Assembly: GCA_038044745.1 (NCBI GenBank)
Contig: JBBSZK010000009.1
Coordinates: 245-64,244 of the forward strand
Reading direction: 5' to 3'
Source of the DNA: Nanobdellota archaeon
Lineage (GTDB): Archaea > Nanobdellota > Nanobdellia > Pacearchaeales > GW2011-AR1
DNA length: 64,000 bases
Shown: one piece after another, positions 1,948-16,542 of the stretch
Layout of the letters: every line of letters begins with the position of its first letter
How positions within the stretch are numbered: the stretch's first letter is position 1
Notes under the pieces: generated by a model
What the model saw: only the letters and a program-made list of their open reading frames with translations
The model's database searches: none
Told to the model about the DNA's origin: nothing
Position numbers and translations under genes: made by a program

Positions 1948-3195
1948 CTATCGTCCACGTCCACGACCGAACGAACCTCGAGAACCATATCGTCCGCTAC
2001 TACGCCCACTGCCTCGACGCGAATCAAACGGTCTGCCACGCCCACCGCCCCTAAATGAGCTCCTGCGTTCTATGCGCAGTTGAATGGGCTCGAGTTCAGG
2101 CACGGGAGTCTGTTCTATCTTGAGCGTGTCATCTCGTAAAACCATCCTAAAGTTATCATAATCTCGGTCAGACACCAAGCTCAAGGCCTTGCCTTCACTA
2201 CCTGCACGCGCAGTGCGTCCAATGCGATGAATGTATTCTTTGCTGTTGGGGGGAAGGTCATAATTATACACATGTGAAACGCCCTTGATGTCAAGTCCCC
2301 GCGCGGCAACATCAGTGCACACAAGTACATAGAACTCATTGGTTCGAAATATCTCCATAATTCGGTTGCGTCGAGATTGAGTAAGCCCCCCATGGATTGC
2401 GAGCGCTTGAACACCATTTGCCTTCAAATGCGTAGCTACAAAGTCAGCATTATGGCGAGTATTGCAAAAGACCATCACCAATCCGCGCTTTTCTTGTTTA
2501 AGCAGATGCACTAACAGTGAAAATTTCAAGTGCTTTGGAACATCATAAAACGTCTGAACCAATTTACTGGGGTCTACACGCTCGCCTGCAGAAACTTCCG
2601 AAGGAGATTTCATGTAGCGTTGTGCGATATGCGCAATATCGGGCGATATGGTCGCCGAGAACAAAAGGGTCTGTCTATCGCGAGGGCATGCTTCAATAAT
2701 GTGCGTAACGTCTTCGATAAATCCCATGTCCAGCATACGGTCCGCCTCATCAAGGATTAATACTTTTATTTTAGAAAGTCTGAAGCTTCCGCGCTCGAGA
2801 TGATCTAAAATACGCCCGGGTGTTCCAACAACAATATCTGCGCGTTCAAGCGCATCTATCTGCGGAGCCATGCCCACACCACCGTAAATAATCGCCGTGT
2901 GAAGTTTCGTATGGCGTGCGAATTTTTGTAAAGACACCCCCACCTGCTCGGCGAGCTCTCGCGTAGGGGCCAATATAAGGGATTGTATTCCTTCTCCATG
3001 ACGAAGGTTTTCAATGAGTCCTGCGCCAAATGCAAGCGTTTTACCCGACCCTGTTGCGGAACATCCGATAACATCTTTGCCCGCAAGCCCGAGGGGAATT
3101 GTTTTCTCCTGAATGTCGGTGGGTTCATGGATGTGCAACTGACTCAATGTGCGCAAAAACGCTTCACTCAATCCTAAATCGCTAAAGGAAACCAT
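1948..3195 (-). CDS. DEAD-box ATP-dependent RNA helicase with RGG-rich C-terminal tail
   Basis: Q-motif region, Walker A AxTGSGKT (SATGSGKTLAF), PTRELA, DEAD (ILDEADRM), SAT, HGGLTQSRR and the HRIGRTARAG motif. The tail is RGGGRGRPFDSRRGSGRSSGRYGSRGSFGRGRGR. Confidence 0.92.
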   Translation of the reverse strand: MVSFSDLGLSEAFLRTLSQLHIHEPTDIQEKTIPLGLAGKDVIGCSATGSGKTLAFGAGLIENLRHGEGIQSLILAPTRELAEQVGVSLQKFARHTKLHTAIIYGGVGMAPQIDALERADIVVGTPGRILDHLERGSFRLSKIKVLILDEADRMLDMGFIEDVTHIIEACPRDRQTLLFSATISPDIAHIAQRYMKSPSEVSAGERVDPSKLVQTFYDVPKHLKFSLLVHLLKQEKRGLVMVFCNTRHNADFVATHLKANGVQALAIHGGLTQSRRNRIMEIFRTNEFYVLVCTDVAARGLDIKGVSHVYNYDLPPNSKEYIHRIGRTARAGSEGKALSLVSDRDYDNFRMVLRDDTLKIEQTPVPELEPIQLRIERRSSFRGGGRGRPFDSRRGSGRSSGRYGSRGSFGRGRGR

Positions 3196-3243
3196 ATCGT
3201 ATATTCGACATAAAAATGCGCAAAAGTACCTTTTTATAGTTAA

Positions 3244-3654
3244 CTAATGAACGCCCATCTCTTTTGCTCGCTTTCTATGCGCGGCAAGTGAATCAATACT
3301 CCAAAAAGTAGCTCCCTGCAAGAAAAGAAAGAACGTCGCTGCTGCGAGTCCAAAATCTCGAACGCCTAAGGGCGTAAATCCTATGCTCACTGTGATTCCT
3401 AAAAGATGGAGTGACAGCACAAGAGCTGAAAACCTTGTATATAATCCGATAAGCAGGAACGTTCCTAGTGTTAATTCAAGAAGCCCATTGAACACAACGA
3501 TATTTGCCGAAGTGATTGCTACGCTGGTCAAAAAAGAGGGAACAAACCCTGTCCAATTATCAGGAGCATACACTTGTTGGAACCCAAAGTACAGAAAGAC
3601 GAACGCCATAGCTATTCGCAAAAATACGGGTGCGTAGAAGGGTAATGGTTTCAT
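3244..3654 (-). CDS. DoxX-family membrane protein
   Basis: 136 aa with 4 predicted TM segments. N-terminus LRIAMAFVFLYFGFQQV resembles DoxX. It lies 1 nt downstream of the cytochrome b5-like gene. Confidence 0.6.
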   Translation of the reverse strand: MKPLPFYAPVFLRIAMAFVFLYFGFQQVYAPDNWTGFVPSFLTSVAITSANIVVFNGLLELTLGTFLLIGLYTRFSALVLSLHLLGITVSIGFTPLGVRDFGLAAATFFLFLQGATFWSIDSLAAHRKRAKEMGVH

Positions 3655-3655
3655 G

Positions 3656-4102
3656 TTAGTTTCCCAAGGGCCCCTTCACATCAAAGTCCCCTATAAACGT
3701 GGCCACTTTTACAAGAAGTCCGGCTTTGCTTGTGCCGTGTTGTCGCGTGAATGCCTGCTCAAACTCACTCGCGCTACCACAATAACGAGCAATTGCGTTT
3801 GTACCGCCCGGATGTCGATCGAGGTACGAGGTCATATCGTACACTTTTCCTTTATACGCAATCCAGCAATCACTTGCACTCGCGTGTTGAGCCAAGGTAG
3901 CAATAGGAATCAGCGTCGACTCGGTTGTACCTCCCGTACCCGAAGAGGACTGGTTCGCAGACGCAGTAGTAGTGGCGGTAGCGTTTTCTATTCGAAGAAG
4001 GCTATCAGAGGTATCAGAGGTTCCTTGATACACGCGAACTAAAAAGCTGAATCCGAACACCAATAAAATAATAAGTCCTGCAAGAATAATCTTCAAATTC
4101 AT
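3656..4102 (-). CDS. Membrane-anchored cytochrome b5-like heme/steroid-binding domain protein
   Basis: N-terminal TM helix, Ser/Thr-rich linker, then HASASDCWIAYKGKVYDMTSYLDRHPGG, which matches the cyt b5-like HPGG core. Confidence 0.7.
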   Translation of the reverse strand: MNLKIILAGLIILLVFGFSFLVRVYQGTSDTSDSLLRIENATATTTASANQSSSGTGGTTESTLIPIATLAQHASASDCWIAYKGKVYDMTSYLDRHPGGTNAIARYCGSASEFEQAFTRQHGTSKAGLLVKVATFIGDFDVKGPLGN

Positions 4103-10645: not shown

Positions 10646-11332
10646 ATGTTCCTCATAGGTATAGACGACGCAGGCCGAGGGCCGATTATCGGACCTATGA
10701 TACTTGCAGGCGTTTTGATTGAAAAAGAGCAGGAACAAGACCTCAAAAAACTTGGCGCAAAAGATTCCAAATTGCTGTCACATCCTGAACGTATGCGCAT
10801 TGCAGAACTCATTCACAAAGAAGTAAAAAAGTCTCACGTGGTGCTCGCAACACCTGCAGAAATCGATGAGGCTATTTTTTCCGGGGAAAATCTTAACACG
10901 CTCGAAGCACGCAAAATGGCGGACGTCATTAATAACCTCAATACCTCGTCAGAGAAAATTAAAGTTATTGTAGATTGTCCGTCGATTAACACGGTGGCGT
11001 GGCGCGAAAAGCTTTTATCCTTTATTAAGAAAAAAACAAATCTCGACGTCGTGTGTGAACATAAGGCCGATTTTAATCACCCTGTTGTATCGGCGGCATC
11101 CATACTCGCGAAAGTGCGCCGAGAAGAAGAAGTCGCGCAATTGAAAAAACGCTACGGTGAACTGGGTTCGGGATACCCTGCAGACCCCATAACAAAATCT
11201 TTTCTAAAAGAAAACGGCAAGGAATTAGAAACCACCGGTATTTTTCGTAAATCATGGGCAACCTGGAAAGAGATGTTTCCCGATAGCCTCACATCACACG
11301 AAAAAAGCGCACAACAAACAAAATTATTCTAA
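10646..11332 (+). CDS. rnhB: Ribonuclease HII
   Basis: IGIDDAGRGPIIGPMILAGV at the N-terminus, DSKLLS, and ASILAKVRREEE, typical of RNase HII. Confidence 0.9.
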   Translation: MFLIGIDDAGRGPIIGPMILAGVLIEKEQEQDLKKLGAKDSKLLSHPERMRIAELIHKEVKKSHVVLATPAEIDEAIFSGENLNTLEARKMADVINNLNTSSEKIKVIVDCPSINTVAWREKLLSFIKKKTNLDVVCEHKADFNHPVVSAASILAKVRREEEVAQLKKRYGELGSGYPADPITKSFLKENGKELETTGIFRKSWATWKEMFPDSLTSHEKSAQQTKLF

Positions 11333-11749
11333 TCCGGAAATATAGCTGTGCGTTGCTTCTCGGGTTTTATCCATAATTCTCAATTCTTCGGCAGGTAATT
11401 CTGGTTCATCATACCCTGGAGTCGTAATAAATCGAAGGCCGCTAACCGTACGCGCATCACAACCTATGTTGCTGTATCCCTCAAAGGGAAGCAGGTTTGC
11501 TCCCTTTTTTATTTGCTCAAGAGATGCGTACATCAGTCCAGAAATCTCGAGCGAATGCATCTCGGGAGGCGTAGCGGAAAGGAGAAGATCGGTTTCATGT
11601 TCTCGGGGAGGAGTGGTCATGCCTCGTCGTAGGATATATCCTATCTCTCGTACACCTAACGTTGTCTGTAAATGCCCCATAAGTCCTACAAGTTCCCCTT
11701 CTGCGAGAGGACGCTCGAATTCGACTGTACTTCGTTCTATTAACCCCAT
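11324..11749 (-). CDS. Hypothetical protein (141 aa)
   Basis: Clean ORF convergent with rnhB. No motif recognised. Confidence 0.5.
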   Translation of the reverse strand: MGLIERSTVEFERPLAEGELVGLMGHLQTTLGVREIGYILRRGMTTPPREHETDLLLSATPPEMHSLEISGLMYASLEQIKKGANLLPFEGYSNIGCDARTVSGLRFITTPGYDEPELPAEELRIMDKTREATHSYISGLE

Positions 11750-11843: not shown

Positions 11844-14786
11844 ATGGCATATATCAAGAAGCTGGTGATGCATGGGTTCAAATCGTTCGCGAATAAGACA
11901 GAAATCTTCTTTGATAAAGGAATCAATGTGATTATTGGCCCCAACGGTTCTGGAAAATCTAATATTTCAGATGCGCTTTGTTTTGTACTCGGTCGTTTGT
12001 CCACCAAGTCAATTCGTGCCGCAAAGGCAAAAAATCTTCTTTTCATGGGCTCTAAATATGTTAAACCTGCTCGAGAGGCCGTTGTTGAAATGGTGTTTGA
12101 CAATAGCGATAGCGCGTTCGGCGTACATGCGGATGAGGTGAGCATTATGCGCACAGTGCGCAATAACGGGTTGAGCGTGTACAAAATAAATGGCGAAGTG
12201 AAGACGCGTGCAGATATTATAGAGGCACTTGCGCAGGCAGGTATCGACCCCCATGGATTTAATCTCGTTCTCCAGGGTCAAATCCAAGCAGCTGTAGGCA
12301 TGCACCCTGAAGAACGCCGCAAGGTCGTCGAGGAAGTCGCAGGAATCTCTATTTACGAAGCGCGTAAAGAGAAGTCGTTGCACGAGCTTGAGAAAACCGA
12401 TGAAAAACTAAAGGAAATTAACGCCATCCTACGCGAGAGAACGGCCTTCTTAAGGAATCTAGAAAATGAACGCCAGCAAGCGCTCAAGTTCAAAGAGCTT
12501 GAACTGACGGTAAAACGCTGTAAGGCTTCCATATTGAGTCGCAGAGCTGCCGAAAAAGAAGATGAACTAGCGTCTATACAAACGTCTCTTGAGGAAAAGA
12601 CTGCTCAAAAAGACACATTACGCGGAAAAGTCGAATCCTTCCAAAAAGAAATAGAAGGGCTCAACGAACGCATACGTCAGATTAACAAGCATATTCAAAG
12701 CGCGACAGGTGTCGAACGCGAGGCGCTCCAGAATACAATCACCAATCTAAAAGCCGAATTAGAAGGGCTTCGCGTGAGAAAAGAAAACTTCGAACATCGT
12801 AAATCGGAGGTTGAACGTCGTATAGCCGAGATAACACGAGCAATTCCTCTGCATGAAACGGAAATAAAGGAACTTAAGAGAGAGTCTCCGCTCGCCGCAA
12901 AAAAACAGGCAGAAATCGCTCAAAAAAAACAGGAACTTGCCCGTATCGAAGAAGAGCGCCGCCATGCTTATTCACTCAAGACCGAACTCAACGCATTCAG
13001 AGACAGGATTAGGGACAAGGAAACACAGCGTGCCCGAATTACAGGGGAATCAGATGCACTCATTAAACAGCTCGAGGAGTACACGTACAATCTTATCTAC
13101 ACCGACGCCGAAGCATGTAAAAAAGCACTCATACATCTAACACAGACAGTTCAGCAAAAAAGAGCGCGTATCTCTGAGCTTGCGACAATGGAGCTTGAAG
13201 CTACAAAACTCGTTTCCATAGGGGAAACTGAGATAAGTGCGGCTCGAAAAATTCAAGGGCAAGTGGCACAAATAGATATTTGCCCGCTCTGTCAAAGTAA
13301 AATGACGCAGGAACACATTACCCATGTTGCGGAAGAAACCAACGCAACGATAGAACGAGCGACAAAAATACGTGAAACCGAATCACAGCGCATAAAAGAC
13401 ATACAGAAAGAACACACGCTTGTGCTTGCAGAAATACGTGAAACCGAAAGAAATCTTTCTGACCACGAACGCGAGCTTTCTCGCCATCACATCACGCTCG
13501 ATAAAAAAGAGTATCTCAAACGCCTCGTCGAACAAGAAAAAGCATTGGGAGTTGAACTAAAACAATTGAACGAGAAACGCGATACACTTCAGCAGAAAAC
13601 GCTCGATGTCGGCCACATAGAAGAAAGTTATGTGGCAAAAATGCATGAAATTGAAGAAATCTCCTCGCGCACCGATGAAAACATTGACCAAACACTCATA
13701 TTCAAAGAGCGCGAATTAGAAAAGCTTCGAGAAAAAATAAAGTTCGATACAGGAGAAATAGAACAGATTGCCTCGGAGATACACAATTTCGCAGCATCTA
13801 TAACCTCAAAATCGAAACTGCTCGACGTCAAGGTAAAAGAAGAAGAAGCGCTTGCTGTCCGTTTTAAAAAACTATTTGAAGAAAGAGATGCTTTACAAGA
13901 ATCGATTCAACATCAGAGTTTTGAAGCAAACGAAGTGCAGAGCCAGGTACGCCAGATCGAGGATCAAATGAACTATCTTAAAATAGGAAATGCAAAATTA
14001 GATGCTGAACGAGAAGCAATTCAAATGGAACTTTCCGAATATGCAGGGCTCGAACTCATTAAAGCATCCATGGCTATGCTCGAGGAGCGTTTGCAAAAAA
14101 CGCAGGCAACTCTGCACACGATTGGTTCCATCAATCTACGTGCACTCGACATTTACGACCAGATGAAGCAAGAGTATGACCGCGTGCAGGAAAAAGTAAA
14201 TACGCTTGTAAAAGAAAAAGAAGACATCCTCAAAATCATAGAAGAAATTGACAACAAGAAAAAGCGCACTTTTATGCGCACCTTTAATCAGATTAATGAA
14301 CTGTTCAGTACCAACTTTTCAAAACTCTCAACAAAAGGCCAGGCGTTTCTCCAAATAGAAAATGAAGAAGACTTGTTTGCGGGCGGCGTAAGTATTGTGA
14401 TTCGTATGGGCAAAGGTAAATATTTTGATGTGGCTTCACTGTCTGGAGGGGAAAAGACGCTGGTTGCGCTTTCACTCCTCTTTGCAATCCAGGAGTACAA
14501 GCCTTATCACTTCTATATCTTCGATGAGATAGACGCGGCACTCGATAAACGAAACTCAGAGCGACTTTCGGCCCTCCTACGGCAGTATATGCGTTCAGGC
14601 CAATATATTACCATCACGCATAACGATGCGCTCATCATGGACGCAAACATCCTCTACGGCGTAAGCATGCACGAAGGCGTATCAAAGATACTGAGCCTTA
14701 AGATGGGCGAAGAAGTCGCTGAAAAGGTCGCAGAAGTGTTCAAACCATCAGATAATCAGGATAACTCTGGAGACGTGTCCGCATAA
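11844..14786 (+). CDS. SMC-head ATPase (980 aa) with long coiled coils and a central CxxC hook-like motif instead of a hinge
   Basis: N-terminal FKSF...GPNGSGKSNISDALCFVLG (SMC Walker A). C-terminal LSGGEKTLVALSLLFAIQEYKPYHFYIFDEIDAALD (SMC signature plus Walker B). The middle is all heptad-like sequence, with ICPLCQ at nt 13281-13292 (about aa 480-483 of 980). No Gly-rich globular hinge segment is visible. Confidence 0.85.
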   Translation: MAYIKKLVMHGFKSFANKTEIFFDKGINVIIGPNGSGKSNISDALCFVLGRLSTKSIRAAKAKNLLFMGSKYVKPAREAVVEMVFDNSDSAFGVHADEVSIMRTVRNNGLSVYKINGEVKTRADIIEALAQAGIDPHGFNLVLQGQIQAAVGMHPEERRKVVEEVAGISIYEARKEKSLHELEKTDEKLKEINAILRERTAFLRNLENERQQALKFKELELTVKRCKASILSRRAAEKEDELASIQTSLEEKTAQKDTLRGKVESFQKEIEGLNERIRQINKHIQSATGVEREALQNTITNLKAELEGLRVRKENFEHRKSEVERRIAEITRAIPLHETEIKELKRESPLAAKKQAEIAQKKQELARIEEERRHAYSLKTELNAFRDRIRDKETQRARITGESDALIKQLEEYTYNLIYTDAEACKKALIHLTQTVQQKRARISELATMELEATKLVSIGETEISAARKIQGQVAQIDICPLCQSKMTQEHITHVAEETNATIERATKIRETESQRIKDIQKEHTLVLAEIRETERNLSDHERELSRHHITLDKKEYLKRLVEQEKALGVELKQLNEKRDTLQQKTLDVGHIEESYVAKMHEIEEISSRTDENIDQTLIFKERELEKLREKIKFDTGEIEQIASEIHNFAASITSKSKLLDVKVKEEEALAVRFKKLFEERDALQESIQHQSFEANEVQSQVRQIEDQMNYLKIGNAKLDAEREAIQMELSEYAGLELIKASMAMLEERLQKTQATLHTIGSINLRALDIYDQMKQEYDRVQEKVNTLVKEKEDILKIIEEIDNKKKRTFMRTFNQINELFSTNFSKLSTKGQAFLQIENEEDLFAGGVSIVIRMGKGKYFDVASLSGGEKTLVALSLLFAIQEYKPYHFYIFDEIDAALDKRNSERLSALLRQYMRSGQYITITHNDALIMDANILYGVSMHEGVSKILSLKMGEEVAEKVAEVFKPSDNQDNSGDVSA

Positions 14787-15250
14787 GCTCTCATCTCTTC
14801 TAAAAAAAGAGGAAGGGTTATTCCCTGTTTATGTAATATCTGGGCCCCCAAACACCCTTCTAACAAAAGAATGCCCCCTAGAAGACAATCAGGGTCAACC
14901 TCTCCTCGGTTTAACAGGCAAGTCATACGAGTGGCGTATTTGTTTTGAATGCAATCGTAAGCCCTGCTCGGAAGGAGATGTGTCGCCCCTATGATGGCTC
15001 TGTCAGGTTCAGAAACACGCCCACAAGGATTCCATTTATCAATAAGGGGCCACAAGCGAAGAGGAGGTGCCCTAAGCCGAATGAGCGTCATACTACACCC
15101 TCCTTGCTGTACGATCCCTGCAAGAAGATGGTCTGTCCGAATAAACTCCTGCCTCGATTCGTACGCAAAGTTACGTGCATTATTGAGAACAAGGTTTGCT
15201 GATTGCCCATAAGGGGTCTCGGGAGCATATCTTTCCACCATAGTTTCCAA
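14756..15250 (-). CDS. Clp N-terminal (double Clp_N repeat) domain protein
   Basis: Two repeats of the Clp_N type (FIRTDHLLAGIVQQGG... and VDPDCLLGGILLLEGCLGAQILHKQGIT). The 3' end overlaps the SMC-like gene by 31 nt (convergent). Confidence 0.5.
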   Translation of the reverse strand: METMVERYAPETPYGQSANLVLNNARNFAYESRQEFIRTDHLLAGIVQQGGCSMTLIRLRAPPLRLWPLIDKWNPCGRVSEPDRAIIGATHLLPSRAYDCIQNKYATRMTCLLNRGEVDPDCLLGGILLLEGCLGAQILHKQGITLPLFLEEMRAYADTSPELS

Positions 15251-15327: not shown

Positions 15328-16542
15328 TTAGTAGTAACTCTCTCCGAATTCTTCCGATTTCTGTGGTTTTCTAGTTAAGAGTACGATGAGTACAATAACC
15401 AGAACGACAAAGATTACGGCAAGGACAACAGTGAGAACAACAGAGGCGTTAACCTTCTGTGCACTGCCCTCAACGGTCGCAGCAAAGCTCTCTTGTTTGA
15501 CGAGTTCGCCATCCGAGCTGATAGTAACGTCGAAGGTGTAGTCGCCCTCTTCAGAGGCCGATGCCGTCAACTGTACTGTCTTACTCGAACCAGCGGGGAC
15601 AACGACAAGGCCATCATCAGCTTCGACGGTTAGACCCTTCGAAGTTTTGATAACAAGGTCGTATACCTTGATTTCGTCACCAGAGTTTACAATCGTAATG
15701 CTGTAGACTTTTTCTTCGTCTGCAGCGAACGATTTGCTAGTGCTCGGCGAGAGTACGCGGCTTTCAGCGCCAGCGCCTACAACTACAATGCGCTTGGTGC
15801 GCACTGAGCTGGAGTCACTGTTGTATGCTTCAAGTTCGATGGTGTAAACACCAGGGGCTGCATTCTGCGGAATGTTCAAATACATTCTGCGTTCAACAGC
15901 GTCTTCCTTATCAGGGTGAGACTGGTCTTCAGCAGTTAAATCGCTGAAATACGCAGTGTTGCTCACACCGAGTTCAGGAATCGTGGCTCGAACATACGTG
16001 TCCTCAGCCATTTGGCGTCCGCGGTTCTTCAAGACCACATCAAGGGCAAGTGTTTGACCTGCCTTAAGTTGGTCTACGCTATCAACCGACAAGATTTCAA
16101 CAAGATATGACTCTCGTTGAACCTCAAGGTCGATACGGCGTTCACTCGCGAGACGAGCGTTACTTTCAACAGTGACGACAAGAACGAGGTCTTCGCTCGG
16201 GTCGATGTCGAAAGGCATCTTGATATTCAACAGCCTGCTATAGGTGTTGTTTGTCAGGACGTCAAAGCGCTCGCTGACTTCAGAAATACCGCTTTCTCCG
16301 ATGACTCGAGCCATGACGCGAACGTCTGTCTCGTCGCCCGTTGCCGTGAAAATAACACGGACAGGGACAGTCTCACCGGCAAAAACAGCGGCAGTTCCAT
16401 TGCCAAAGCTCTCGATACCGTTTACCGTAACCCGGTCAATAGATGCGAAAGCGCTCACGCTTGAAGCTAGGAAAGCTACAAGTGCGAGAATCGCAACCAT
16501 AGAAACCATAAGTTTCATTGACTTCATGGGTTGGTGGTTCAT
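15328..16542 (-). CDS. Cell-surface (S-layer-like, Ig/CARDB-type repeats) protein with signal peptide and C-terminal TM anchor
   Basis: N-terminal hydrophobic signal (LMVSMVAILALVAFLASSVSAFA), beta-rich repeated modules, and a C-terminal VVLTVVLAVIFVVLVIVLIVLL anchor followed by a basic stop-transfer. Confidence 0.6.
   Translation of the reverse strand: MNHQPMKSMKLMVSMVAILALVAFLASSVSAFASIDRVTVNGIESFGNGTAAVFAGETVPVRVIFTATGDETDVRVMARVIGESGISEVSERFDVLTNNTYSRLLNIKMPFDIDPSEDLVLVVTVESNARLASERRIDLEVQRESYLVEILSVDSVDQLKAGQTLALDVVLKNRGRQMAEDTYVRATIPELGVSNTAYFSDLTAEDQSHPDKEDAVERRMYLNIPQNAAPGVYTIELEAYNSDSSSVRTKRIVVVGAGAESRVLSPSTSKSFAADEEKVYSITIVNSGDEIKVYDLVIKTSKGLTVEADDGLVVVPAGSSKTVQLTASASEEGDYTFDVTISSDGELVKQESFAATVEGSAQKVNASVVLTVVLAVIFVVLVIVLIVLLTRKPQKSEEFGESYY

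What the first reader, a model, noticed from the sequence alone, without database searches (positions are those of the whole stretch)
11844..14786. SMC-type heads joined by coiled coils with a central CPLC (zinc-hook-like) motif and no hinge domain
The head motifs are of the SMC type rather than the Rad50 type: FKSF, GPNGSGKSNISDA, LSGGEKTLVALSLLFAIQ and FYIFDEIDAALD. However, the 980-aa protein has no globular Gly-rich hinge. Almost exactly at its midpoint (aa 480-483 of 980, nt 13281-13292) it has I-C-P-L-C-Q embedded in heptad sequence, which is how the Rad50/SbcC zinc hook is arranged. No mre11, scpA or scpB gene is adjacent. If this is the only SMC-family protein of the genome, chromosome organisation in this lineage may rely on a hook-dimerising SMC.
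Basis: partly seen in the sequence, partly recalled or inferred. Interest (0 to 1): 0.6.

Follow-up and report, generated by a model that had tools for sequence, protein, structure and literature searches.

The report
Natural SMC with zinc hook
This is the chromosome-organising SMC protein of a tiny DPANN (Pacearchaeota-type) archaeon in which the usual "hinge" that joins two SMC molecules has been replaced by the small zinc-hook joint of the DNA-repair protein Rad50, a swap otherwise reported only as a laboratory construct.

Summary
Window 11844-14786 (+) is an intact 980-aa gene with true SMC heads, no hinge domain and I-C-P-L-C-Q at aa 479-484.

- **Descent from Smc:** residues 1-450 and 490-954 align end to end with the canonical hinge-bearing Smc of the same phylum. 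About 229 residues (hinge plus adjoining coil) are replaced by about 39.
- **The replacement is Rad50-like:** by Pfam, by PDB profile search, by an HMM of the phylum's own Rad50 proteins and by predicted fold (best match 1L8D). It keeps the Rad50 signature CPxC-x4-T-x2-H.
- **Distribution:** the hook is in 120/120 database homologues and 80/80 species-representative loci. Hook-Smc is monophyletic and fills one order (0/29 sampled genomes have a hinge). Most other genomes of the phylum keep the hinge (359/401 sampled overall).
- **Partners:** the genome also encodes ScpA, ScpB and a separate mre11-rad50 operon, so this is not the only SMC-family protein.

Best reading: a working Smc-ScpAB complex whose arms are joined by a Rad50-derived zinc hook. 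Zinc binding and dimerisation are inferred, not shown.

I found no paper describing a natural case. The closest known thing is the engineered B. subtilis Smc(Zh) chimera. This scan has already reported the same protein in at least 15 other genomes.

The parts
11844..14786 (+). smc gene, 980 aa plus stop: hinge-less, zinc-hook Smc
   Evidence: ORF. SMC_N 218 bits. TIGR02169 519 bits in two pieces. Pyrococcus Smc 5xei E 2.9e-101.
11844..12347 (+). N-terminal half of the SMC ATPase head (aa 1-168), including Walker A GPNGSGKS (aa 32-39, nt 11937-11960)
   Evidence: PDB Smc head hits to aa 1-182. AF2 strands and helices for aa 3-166.
12348..13271 (+). N-terminal coiled-coil arm (aa 169-476). The part up to about aa 450 is of SMC origin. 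Predicted helix breaks at aa 205-215, 347-351 and 416-421.
   Evidence: AF2 secondary structure. The canonical-Smc HMM aligns aa 1-450 to model positions 1-451.
13236..13349 (+). Rad50-like apex segment (aa about 465-502): the stretch whose similarity to the phylum's Rad50 hooks exceeds the coiled-coil background
   Evidence: Hook-anchored gapless similarity against heptad-shifted controls. Rad50 HMM alignment. hhalign consensus match.
13272..13307 (+). Hook loop (aa 477-488) with C480-P-L-C483 (nt 13281-13292), T488 and H491
   Evidence: AF2 loop between helices. C, P, C, T(+8) and H(+11) are invariant or nearly so. They align with Pf Rad50 CPVCGRELTDEH.
13308..14327 (+). C-terminal coiled-coil arm (aa 489-828), of SMC origin from about aa 490. 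Predicted breaks at aa 587-588, 608-613, 733-742 and 761-769.
   Evidence: AF2. The canonical-Smc HMM aligns aa 490-954 to model positions 681-1164.
14328..14705 (+). C-terminal half of the SMC head (aa 829-954): signature LSGGE (nt 14439-14453) and Walker B FYIFDE (nt 14511-14528)
   Evidence: PDB Smc C-terminal head chains 3kta_B and 1xew_Y, E about 1e-36. Invariant columns.
14706..14783 (+). Poorly conserved, low-confidence C-terminal tail (aa 955-980)
   Evidence: pLDDT below 50 for aa 963-980. Homologues align only to aa 954.

Best explanation
The gene is the orthologue, by descent, of the canonical archaeal Smc of the Smc-ScpAB complex. In the common ancestor of one order of Nanoarchaeota (records named Pacearchaeota, Woesearchaeota or Nanoarchaeota), about 229 residues were replaced by about 40 residues carrying a Rad50-type zinc hook. 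The lost stretch comprised the hinge domain and the adjoining coil. The hook most likely came from a Rad50 of the same phylum. How it would work (inferred): each protomer folds back into an antiparallel coiled-coil arm of about 45 nm with C480/C483 at the tip. Two protomers share one Zn2+ through four cysteines, which gives the constitutive apex dimer that the hinge normally provides. ScpA bridges the ATPase heads and ScpB binds ScpA. The complex then acts on the chromosome as other Smc-ScpAB complexes do. Shown here: sequence anatomy, breakpoints, similarity of the apex to Rad50 hooks, predicted fold, clade distribution and presence of the partner genes. Inferred: zinc binding, dimerisation and cellular function.
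For: Heads are SMC. Scores are TIGR02169 519 bits against 115 bits for the best Rad50 model, and Pyrococcus Smc E 2.9e-101 against about 5e-13 for Rad50 heads. In the head tree Rad50 is separated by a branch with support 100, and hook-Smc is monophyletic (100) and nested among hinge-bearing Smc. The full-length model matches SMC chains best.

Breakpoints: aa 1-450 align to canonical-Smc model 1-451 (369 bits) and aa 490-954 to model 681-1164 (373 bits). The hinge Pfam core lies at about aa 510-635 in canonical relatives.

The apex is Rad50-like. Of 29 apex fragments, 26 hit Pfam Rad50_zn_hook, best E 1.4e-6. The top three PDB profile hits are the Rad50 hooks 6zff, 1l8d and 5gox. An HMM of seven Rad50 proteins from the phylum gives hook-centred domains with median 64.9 bits on 28 hook-Smc, against 17.9 bits on 19 canonical Smc. 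Consensus strings match over about 35 positions. The apex AF2 model (pLDDT 94.7) has 1l8d as its best PDB fold match, TM 0.70/0.84, rmsd 2.4 A.

Conservation and spread: CPxC in 120/120 and 80/80 homologues. The hinge profile is found in 359/401 genomes of the phylum but in 0/29 genomes of this order, all of which have the hook protein instead.

Partners: ScpA and ScpB are in this genome. In 41 genera of the family, ScpB is in 41/41 and ScpA in 39/41.

Synteny: RNase HII lies upstream of smc in 60/80 hook-Smc loci and in at least 4/19 hinge-Smc loci.

Feasibility: a B. subtilis Smc with the P. furiosus Rad50 zinc hook in place of the hinge supported normal growth on rich medium (PMC5344682; restated in bioRxiv 10.1101/2020.06.24.160820).
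Against: No experiment or multimer model shows zinc binding or dimerisation. The Pfam hook score of this particular protein is below the gathering cut-off (15.6-19.1 bits against 24.3). Foldseek E-values for the apex are weak (0.011), as expected for a helical hairpin. Similarity to Rad50 clearly exceeds the coiled-coil background only over aa about 465-502, so the donor cannot be identified from a tree. The genome is 87% complete, so a second, hinge-bearing Smc cannot be formally excluded for this organism; none was found in 29 genomes of the order, most of them over 90% complete.
Confidence: 0.85

Rival explanations
1. The CxxC apex arose by convergence after simple loss of the hinge. It is not derived from Rad50, though it may still bind zinc.
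For: The demonstrably Rad50-like stretch is short, about 40 aa. This protein's own Pfam hook score is below the cut-off.
Against: The shared pattern goes well beyond CxxC. It reads [IV]-x-x-[LMI]-D-x-C-P-x-C-x-x-x-[IV]-T-x-x-H-x-x-x-[IV]...K-I, and it matches the phylum's Rad50 consensus and Pf Rad50 CPVCGRELTDEH. Rad50 HMM scores are about 47 bits above the canonical-Smc control. Divergent hook-Smc lineages (genus g3 of the family and the sister family f2) keep the Rad50-typical C-K-Q.
Confidence: 0.08
2. The hook does not only make the constitutive Smc homodimer. It might bridge separate complexes, as proposed for Rad50 tethering, or pair with the cell's own Rad50 hook and so couple Smc-ScpAB to Mre11-Rad50.
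For: Smc and Rad50 in the same cell carry homologous hooks. Every one of the 17 Rad50 proteins examined in this order has CPTC..Q, while the Smc hook is CP[LVI]C in 25 of 28. This could reflect interplay between the two hooks.
Against: The fixed differences at three hook positions fit insulation between the two proteins at least as well as pairing. The difference may also be a single inherited change, because all 17 genomes are kin. ScpA and ScpB are retained as in ordinary Smc. The engineered hook chimera works as a plain homodimer (PMC5344682).
Confidence: 0.1
3. It is a Rad50/SbcC paralogue or an archaea-specific SMC-related protein (ASRP: ClsN, Sph1/2), families already known to have zinc hooks. 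In that case it is not an Smc orthologue.
For: ASRPs and Rad50 combine SMC-superfamily heads with a zinc hook (PMC9389158). NCBIfam ASRP and Rad50 models give weak hits.
Against: ASRP scores 104.7 bits (cut-off 300) and Rad50 115 bits (cut-off 700), against 519 bits for Smc. The head tree places it within Smc with support 100. The arms align with canonical Smc along their whole length. There is no adjacent mre11. It is the only Smc in genomes that keep ScpA and ScpB.
Confidence: 0.02
4. It is an assembly or binning artefact, or a decaying gene.
For: The genome is a metagenome-assembled, 13-contig draft.
Against: The same architecture, with an intact reading frame and invariant ATPase motifs, recurs in hundreds of independent assemblies from many studies.
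Confidence: 0.01

Closest known systems
Engineered Bacillus subtilis Smc(Zh): Smc with its hinge replaced by the Pyrococcus furiosus Rad50 zinc hook (Burmann et al. 2017, Mol Cell, PMC5344682)
   Same: Same architecture: SMC heads and arms with a Rad50 CPxC hook at the apex, working with ScpAB. The chimera supported normal growth on rich medium and near-normal arm alignment.
   Different: That protein is a laboratory construct with a hook from a foreign species. This one is natural, fixed in a whole archaeal order, and its hook resembles the Rad50 of its own phylum. The N-terminal arm helix (about 308 aa) is some 20 aa shorter than in hinge-bearing relatives.
Canonical prokaryotic/archaeal Smc of Smc-ScpAB (TIGR02169/TIGR02168; Pyrococcus Smc, PDB 5xei, 5xns, 4i99)
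   Same: Heads, joint, arms, ScpA/ScpB partners and the upstream RNase HII gene.
   Different: It has no SMC_hinge domain (PF06470) and falls below the TIGR02169 cut-off (519 against 729 bits). The apex is a 12-residue CPLC loop.
Rad50/SbcC zinc hook (PF04423; PDB 1l8d, 6zff, 5gox)
   Same: The CPxC-x4-T-x2-H motif sits at the tip of an antiparallel coiled coil. These are the best sequence-profile and fold matches of the apex.
   Different: The heads are not Rad50-type and there is no Mre11 partner gene nearby. The genome has its own separate mre11-rad50 operon.
Hinge-less SMC of marine Actinobacteria (Environ Microbiome 2025, PMC12153180)
   Same: An SMC lineage that lost the hinge domain.
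   Different: The authors state that the CxxC zinc-hook motif is absent from those proteins. They are bacterial and are a separate case.
Archaea-specific SMC-related proteins (ASRP: ClsN, Sph1/2; PMC9389158)
   Same: Archaeal SMC-superfamily proteins with a zinc-hook motif.
   Different: ASRPs are a distinct family with different heads (the NF045487 model is 593 positions long). This protein scores 104.7 bits against a cut-off of 300.

Membership tests
Prokaryotic Smc (Smc-ScpAB) | SMC-type ABC ATPase head (Walker A, signature LSGG, Walker B, D-loop) | tested here: met
   SMC_N 218 bits. Pyrococcus Smc heads E 1e-84 to 1e-101. Motifs are invariant in 68 homologues.
Prokaryotic Smc (Smc-ScpAB) | Head phylogeny inside SMC rather than Rad50 | tested here: met
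   Rad50 versus (hinge-Smc plus hook-Smc) split has support 100. Hook-Smc is monophyletic (100) and nested among hinge-Smc of the phylum.
Prokaryotic Smc (Smc-ScpAB) | Long antiparallel coiled-coil arms homologous to Smc arms | tested here: met
   The canonical-Smc HMM aligns aa 1-450 and 490-954 without internal loss. AF2 helices span aa 169-476 and 489-828.
Prokaryotic Smc (Smc-ScpAB) | Globular hinge dimerisation domain (PF06470) | tested here: not met
   No hit in the protein or the genome. AF2 shows no globular domain at the apex.
Prokaryotic Smc (Smc-ScpAB) | NCBIfam equivalog cut-off (TIGR02169 729 bits; TIGR02168 567 bits) | tested here: not met
   519 and 502 bits, each in two pieces flanking the missing hinge.
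Prokaryotic Smc (Smc-ScpAB) | Kleisin ScpA and ScpB encoded in the genome | tested here: met
   ScpA PF02616 51 bits and ScpB PF04079 107 bits. ScpB is in 41/41 and ScpA in 39/41 genera of the family. Physical binding was not tested.
Rad50/SbcC | CxxC zinc hook at the apex of the coiled coil | tested here: met
   Sequence motif and profile matches. Best fold match is 1l8d.
Rad50/SbcC | Rad50-type ATPase head | tested here: not met
   The best Rad50 NCBIfam model scores 115 bits against a cut-off of 700. Against the genome's own Rad50, only the signature region aligns, E 7e-4. Tree.
Rad50/SbcC | Mre11/SbcD nuclease partner, usually in an operon | tested here: not met
   The neighbours are unrelated. 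The genome's mre11 overlaps its true rad50 on contig C13.
Rad50/SbcC | Zn2+ coordinated by four Cys from two protomers | not testable with these tools
   Only monomer prediction was available. It needs multimer modelling with metal, or biochemistry.
ASRP (ClsN/Sph) | NCBIfam NF045487 equivalog cut-off of 300 bits | tested here: not met
   104.7 bits, in three stretches (best over aa 17-327).

The most novel reading that the evidence does not exclude
Once Smc acquired a Rad50-derived hook, two homologous zinc hooks coexisted in one cell, and they may have evolved a specificity code. All 17 Rad50 proteins examined in the hook-Smc order carry C-P-T-C-x-Q, against 1 of 14 Rad50 proteins in hinge-Smc orders. 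The Smc hook is C-P-[LVI]-C in 25 of 28. Either these differences insulate Smc-Smc pairing from Rad50-Rad50 pairing, or some cross-pairing physically couples chromosome organisation to double-strand-break repair.
Probability: 0.15. Interest if true: 0.75.

Novelty: new variant of a known kind. Interest (0 to 1): 0.6.

Why it matters
The role of the hinge has long been debated in the SMC field: as a DNA-binding site, as a possible DNA entry gate, or as a relay to the heads. Here a whole order of archaea, hundreds of species, runs its only Smc-ScpAB complex without any hinge and with a 12-residue zinc hook instead. If the inferred mechanism holds, constitutive apex dimerisation is the only hinge function that prokaryotic condensin strictly needs. 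This is the evolutionary counterpart of the 2017 B. subtilis chimera experiment. It provides natural sequences, with natural arm lengths and junctions, for structural and single-molecule work. It is a clear case of module exchange between two branches of the SMC superfamily. It also affects annotation: these proteins fall below the equivalog cut-offs (TIGR02169 and TIGR02168) and are variously labelled 'SMC', 'AAA family ATPase' or 'hypothetical'.

Tried and rejected
1. **Cryptic or separate hinge.** PF06470 was searched in the protein and the whole genome, and the AF2 model was inspected. None was found.
2. **Second metal site at the conserved C425.** Rejected: the Cys is kept in only 7/28 family members and is absent from canonical Smc.
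3. **Extending the Rad50-derived segment beyond the hook.** The long HMM alignments (about 300 aa) are inflated by coiled-coil composition. With heptad-shifted controls, only aa about 465-502 stand out. I therefore do not claim transfer of a long stretch of arm, and I did not attempt a donor tree.
4. **Foldseek on the apex.** The top hit is the Rad50 hook, but E-values are weak because any helical hairpin matches. I use it only as supporting evidence.
5. **L152 as an apparent exception without CPxC.** This was my script picking the wrong ORF; the hook is there.
6. **Conserved partner gene next to smc.** No kleisin is adjacent. RNase HII upstream and a surface protein downstream are syntenic, but the surface protein is convergently oriented and neither has a known functional link to Smc.
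7. **Dimer modelling with zinc.** Not available, because the prediction tool handles monomers only.
8. **The large representative-library search.** Not run, because its top-150 output could not separate independent hook acquisitions from this clade.
Full report
**Observation.** The window holds an uninterrupted 980-codon ORF at 11844-14786 on the + strand. I-C-P-L-C-Q lies at aa 479-484, and C480..C483 correspond to nt 13281-13292. Pfam reports SMC_N across the two ends (218 bits) and no SMC_hinge. It also gives a sub-threshold Rad50_zn_hook match at aa 469-504 (15.6 bits, cut-off 24.3). The whole genome is 749 kb in 13 contigs and 87% complete; the window is contig C9:245-64244. It has no match to the hinge profile PF06470.

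**The heads and arms are Smc.**
- NCBIfam scores the protein at 519 bits (TIGR02169) and 502 bits (TIGR02168), in two pieces that flank the missing hinge. The best Rad50 model scores 115 bits and ASRP 105 bits.
- Solved Pyrococcus Smc heads match at E 2.9e-101. Rad50 heads match at about 5e-13.
- I built an HMM from 19 full-length hinge-bearing Smc proteins of other families of the same phylum. Residues 1-450 align to model positions 1-451 (369 bits) and residues 490-954 to positions 681-1164 (373 bits).
- So 229 model positions are replaced by 39 residues. In canonical relatives the hinge Pfam core lies at about aa 510-635.
- A maximum-likelihood tree of concatenated head halves used 28 hook-Smc, 19 hinge-Smc and 7 Rad50 sequences. 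Rad50 is separated by a long branch (support 100). Hook-Smc forms one clade (support 100) nested among the hinge-Smc of the phylum.

**The apex is a Rad50-type hook.**
- I aligned 124-aa apex fragments from 29 diverse homologues. C, P, C, T(+8) and H(+11) are invariant.
- Of these 29 fragments, 26 hit Pfam Rad50_zn_hook, best E 1.4e-6.
- The profile's three best matches in the PDB are the Rad50 hooks 6zff, 1l8d (P. furiosus) and 5gox (human). CPLCqskiTeeH aligns with CPVCGRELTDEH.
- When the same profile is searched against 401 genomes of the phylum, the best hits outside the hook-Smc clade are the phylum's short Rad50 proteins (about 685-830 aa). They score 35-64 bits over almost the whole model.
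- Conversely, an HMM of seven of these Rad50 proteins places its best domain on the hook of every one of 28 hook-Smc (median 64.9 bits). On 19 canonical Smc the median is 17.9 bits.
- Consensus strings agree over about 35 positions. Smc reads "kl...I.kldiCPlCkskiT.eHi..i..e...kI" and Rad50 reads "ike.I..LD.CPlCkQ.Vt..Hk..vi.ee..KI".
- With a gapless, hook-anchored comparison and heptad-shifted controls, the excess similarity is confined to aa about 465-502. I therefore claim only an apex module of about 40 residues as Rad50-derived.

**Predicted structure.**
- The full-length AF2 model has mean pLDDT 76.6. It shows heads, two long helical arms with the usual discontinuities, and no globular domain at the apex. 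Helix 422-476 is followed by a loop at 477-488 and helix 489-586, with pLDDT 80-94 around the tip.
- Its best PDB matches are condensin Smc4/Smc2 and Pyrococcus Smc head fragments; TM normalised to the target reaches 0.87.
- The apex alone models at pLDDT 94.7 as a helical hairpin. Its best PDB fold match is 1l8d, the P. furiosus Rad50 zinc hook (TM 0.70/0.84, rmsd 2.4 A over 100 columns). The E-value is weak (0.011) because helical hairpins are common.

**Conservation and distribution.**
- All 120 best database homologues have CP[LIV]C at the same place and none has a hinge domain. They share 40-69% identity over aa 300-700 and are mostly 950-1000 aa; a few are about 1500 aa and contain inteins.
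- In one-genome-per-species collections, the 80 best loci all carry the hook. Their records are named Candidatus Pacearchaeota, Woesearchaeota or Nanoarchaeota.
- Across 401 sampled genomes of the phylum, 359 have a hinge, within ORFs of about 1165 aa. The window's family (0/27) and the two other sampled families of its order (0/1 each) have none.
- All of those genomes have the hook protein instead. That includes a divergent genus (g3) and the two sister families (f2, f3).
- The swap is therefore a single, old event that defines one order.

**Partners and context.**
- The genome encodes ScpA (C2:99618-100544, PF02616 51 bits) and ScpB (C7:110167-110682, PF04079 107 bits).
- In 41 genera of the family, ScpB was found in 41/41 and ScpA in 39/41.
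- A separate mre11-rad50 operon lies on contig C13. The mre11 gene (872-2059) overlaps rad50 (2056-4101; 681 aa; hook KIDMCPTCLQDV).
- Against the genome's own Rad50, the two best local alignments of the Smc are the ABC signature region (E 7e-4) and the hook (E 0.001).
- No kleisin or nuclease gene is adjacent to smc in the window.
- RNase HII lies upstream of smc in 60/80 hook-Smc loci, and also in at least 4/19 hinge-Smc loci despite their short flanks. This fits replacement of the hinge in situ.

**Mechanism.** The most likely reading is a normal Smc-ScpAB complex whose arms are joined at the tip by a Zn2+ shared between C480/C483 of two protomers. Feasibility is established by experiment. 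B. subtilis Smc carrying the P. furiosus Rad50 zinc hook in place of the hinge showed near-normal arm alignment and supported normal growth on rich medium (PMC5344682; restated). Human Rad50 also tolerates the reverse exchange (title of PMC6969161). Zinc binding, dimerisation and function of the natural protein are inferred, not shown.

**Comparison and novelty.**
- The protein is an Smc by descent but fails a defining feature of the family, the hinge, and the equivalog cut-offs. It has the Rad50 hook but fails the Rad50 head and Mre11 criteria. It is not an ASRP.
- Four full-text searches found no paper describing a natural Smc with a zinc hook. They combined SMC, hinge, zinc hook, DPANN, Pacearchaeota, Woesearchaeota, Nanoarchaeota and hinge-less.
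- The 'hinge-less SMC' reported in marine Actinobacteria explicitly lacks the CxxC. A library search cannot prove absence from the literature.
- Earlier reports of this same scan describe the same protein in at least 15 other genomes, with the same reading. I reached mine before reading them.

**An extra observation.** All 17 Rad50 proteins examined in the hook-Smc order have C-P-T-C-x-Q. Only 1 of 14 Rad50 proteins from hinge-Smc orders has CPTC. The Smc hooks are C-P-[LVI]-C in 25 of 28, and divergent lineages (genus g3, family f2) keep the Rad50-like C-K-Q. Because these genomes are kin, this may be one inherited change. It is nevertheless what one would expect if two homologous hooks in one cell had to be kept from cross-pairing.

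Noticed in passing
genome contig C13:872-4101 (outside the window); loci L154-L164 and L174-L178: The Rad50 of every genome examined in the hook-Smc order (17/17) has the hook C-P-T-C-x-Q. Rad50 proteins of hinge-Smc orders mostly have CP[LIV]C[KHRQ]Q, and only 1/14 has CPTC. This may be a specificity difference between the two hooks in one cell, or just a clade signature.
   Followed up: partly
proteins P0054, P0061, P0067, P0080, P0109, P0116, P0119 (relatives, about 1500 aa): Some hook-Smc orthologues carry an intein of about 520-535 aa with a LAGLIDADG domain. It is inserted inside the Walker A P-loop (GPNGSGK(S)|C....HN|SN).
   Followed up: partly
window 10646-11332 (+) and 15328-16542 (-): RNase HII upstream of smc is syntenic in 60/80 hook-Smc loci and in at least 4/19 hinge-Smc loci. 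A 404-aa surface-type protein, convergently oriented downstream, recurs in 52/80; it has weak sub-threshold matches to Ig-like-fold Pfam domains. No functional link to Smc is known for either.
   Followed up: partly
window 11324-11749 (-): A 141-aa ORF sits between rnhB and smc on the opposite strand. It has no Pfam match and a relative in only 1 of 80 related loci. It is either an orphan insertion in this lineage or not a gene.
   Followed up: no
window 14756-15250 (-): A 164-aa ORF with a weak Clp_N match (22.7 bits) overlaps the 3' end of smc by 31 nt in convergent orientation. It was found in none of 80 related loci.
   Followed up: no
window aa 425 of the Smc (nt 13116-13118): A Cys about 55 residues before the hook is invariant among the closest relatives (29/29 apex fragments) but is kept in only 7/28 across the family. 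It is not a general second metal ligand.
   Followed up: yes
loci L093, L120 and protein P0053: A few hook-Smc records are labelled Aenigmarchaeum, Bacillota or Parcubacteria. They are short contigs in metagenome bins and are probably mis-binned or mislabelled Pacearchaeota DNA.
   Followed up: no
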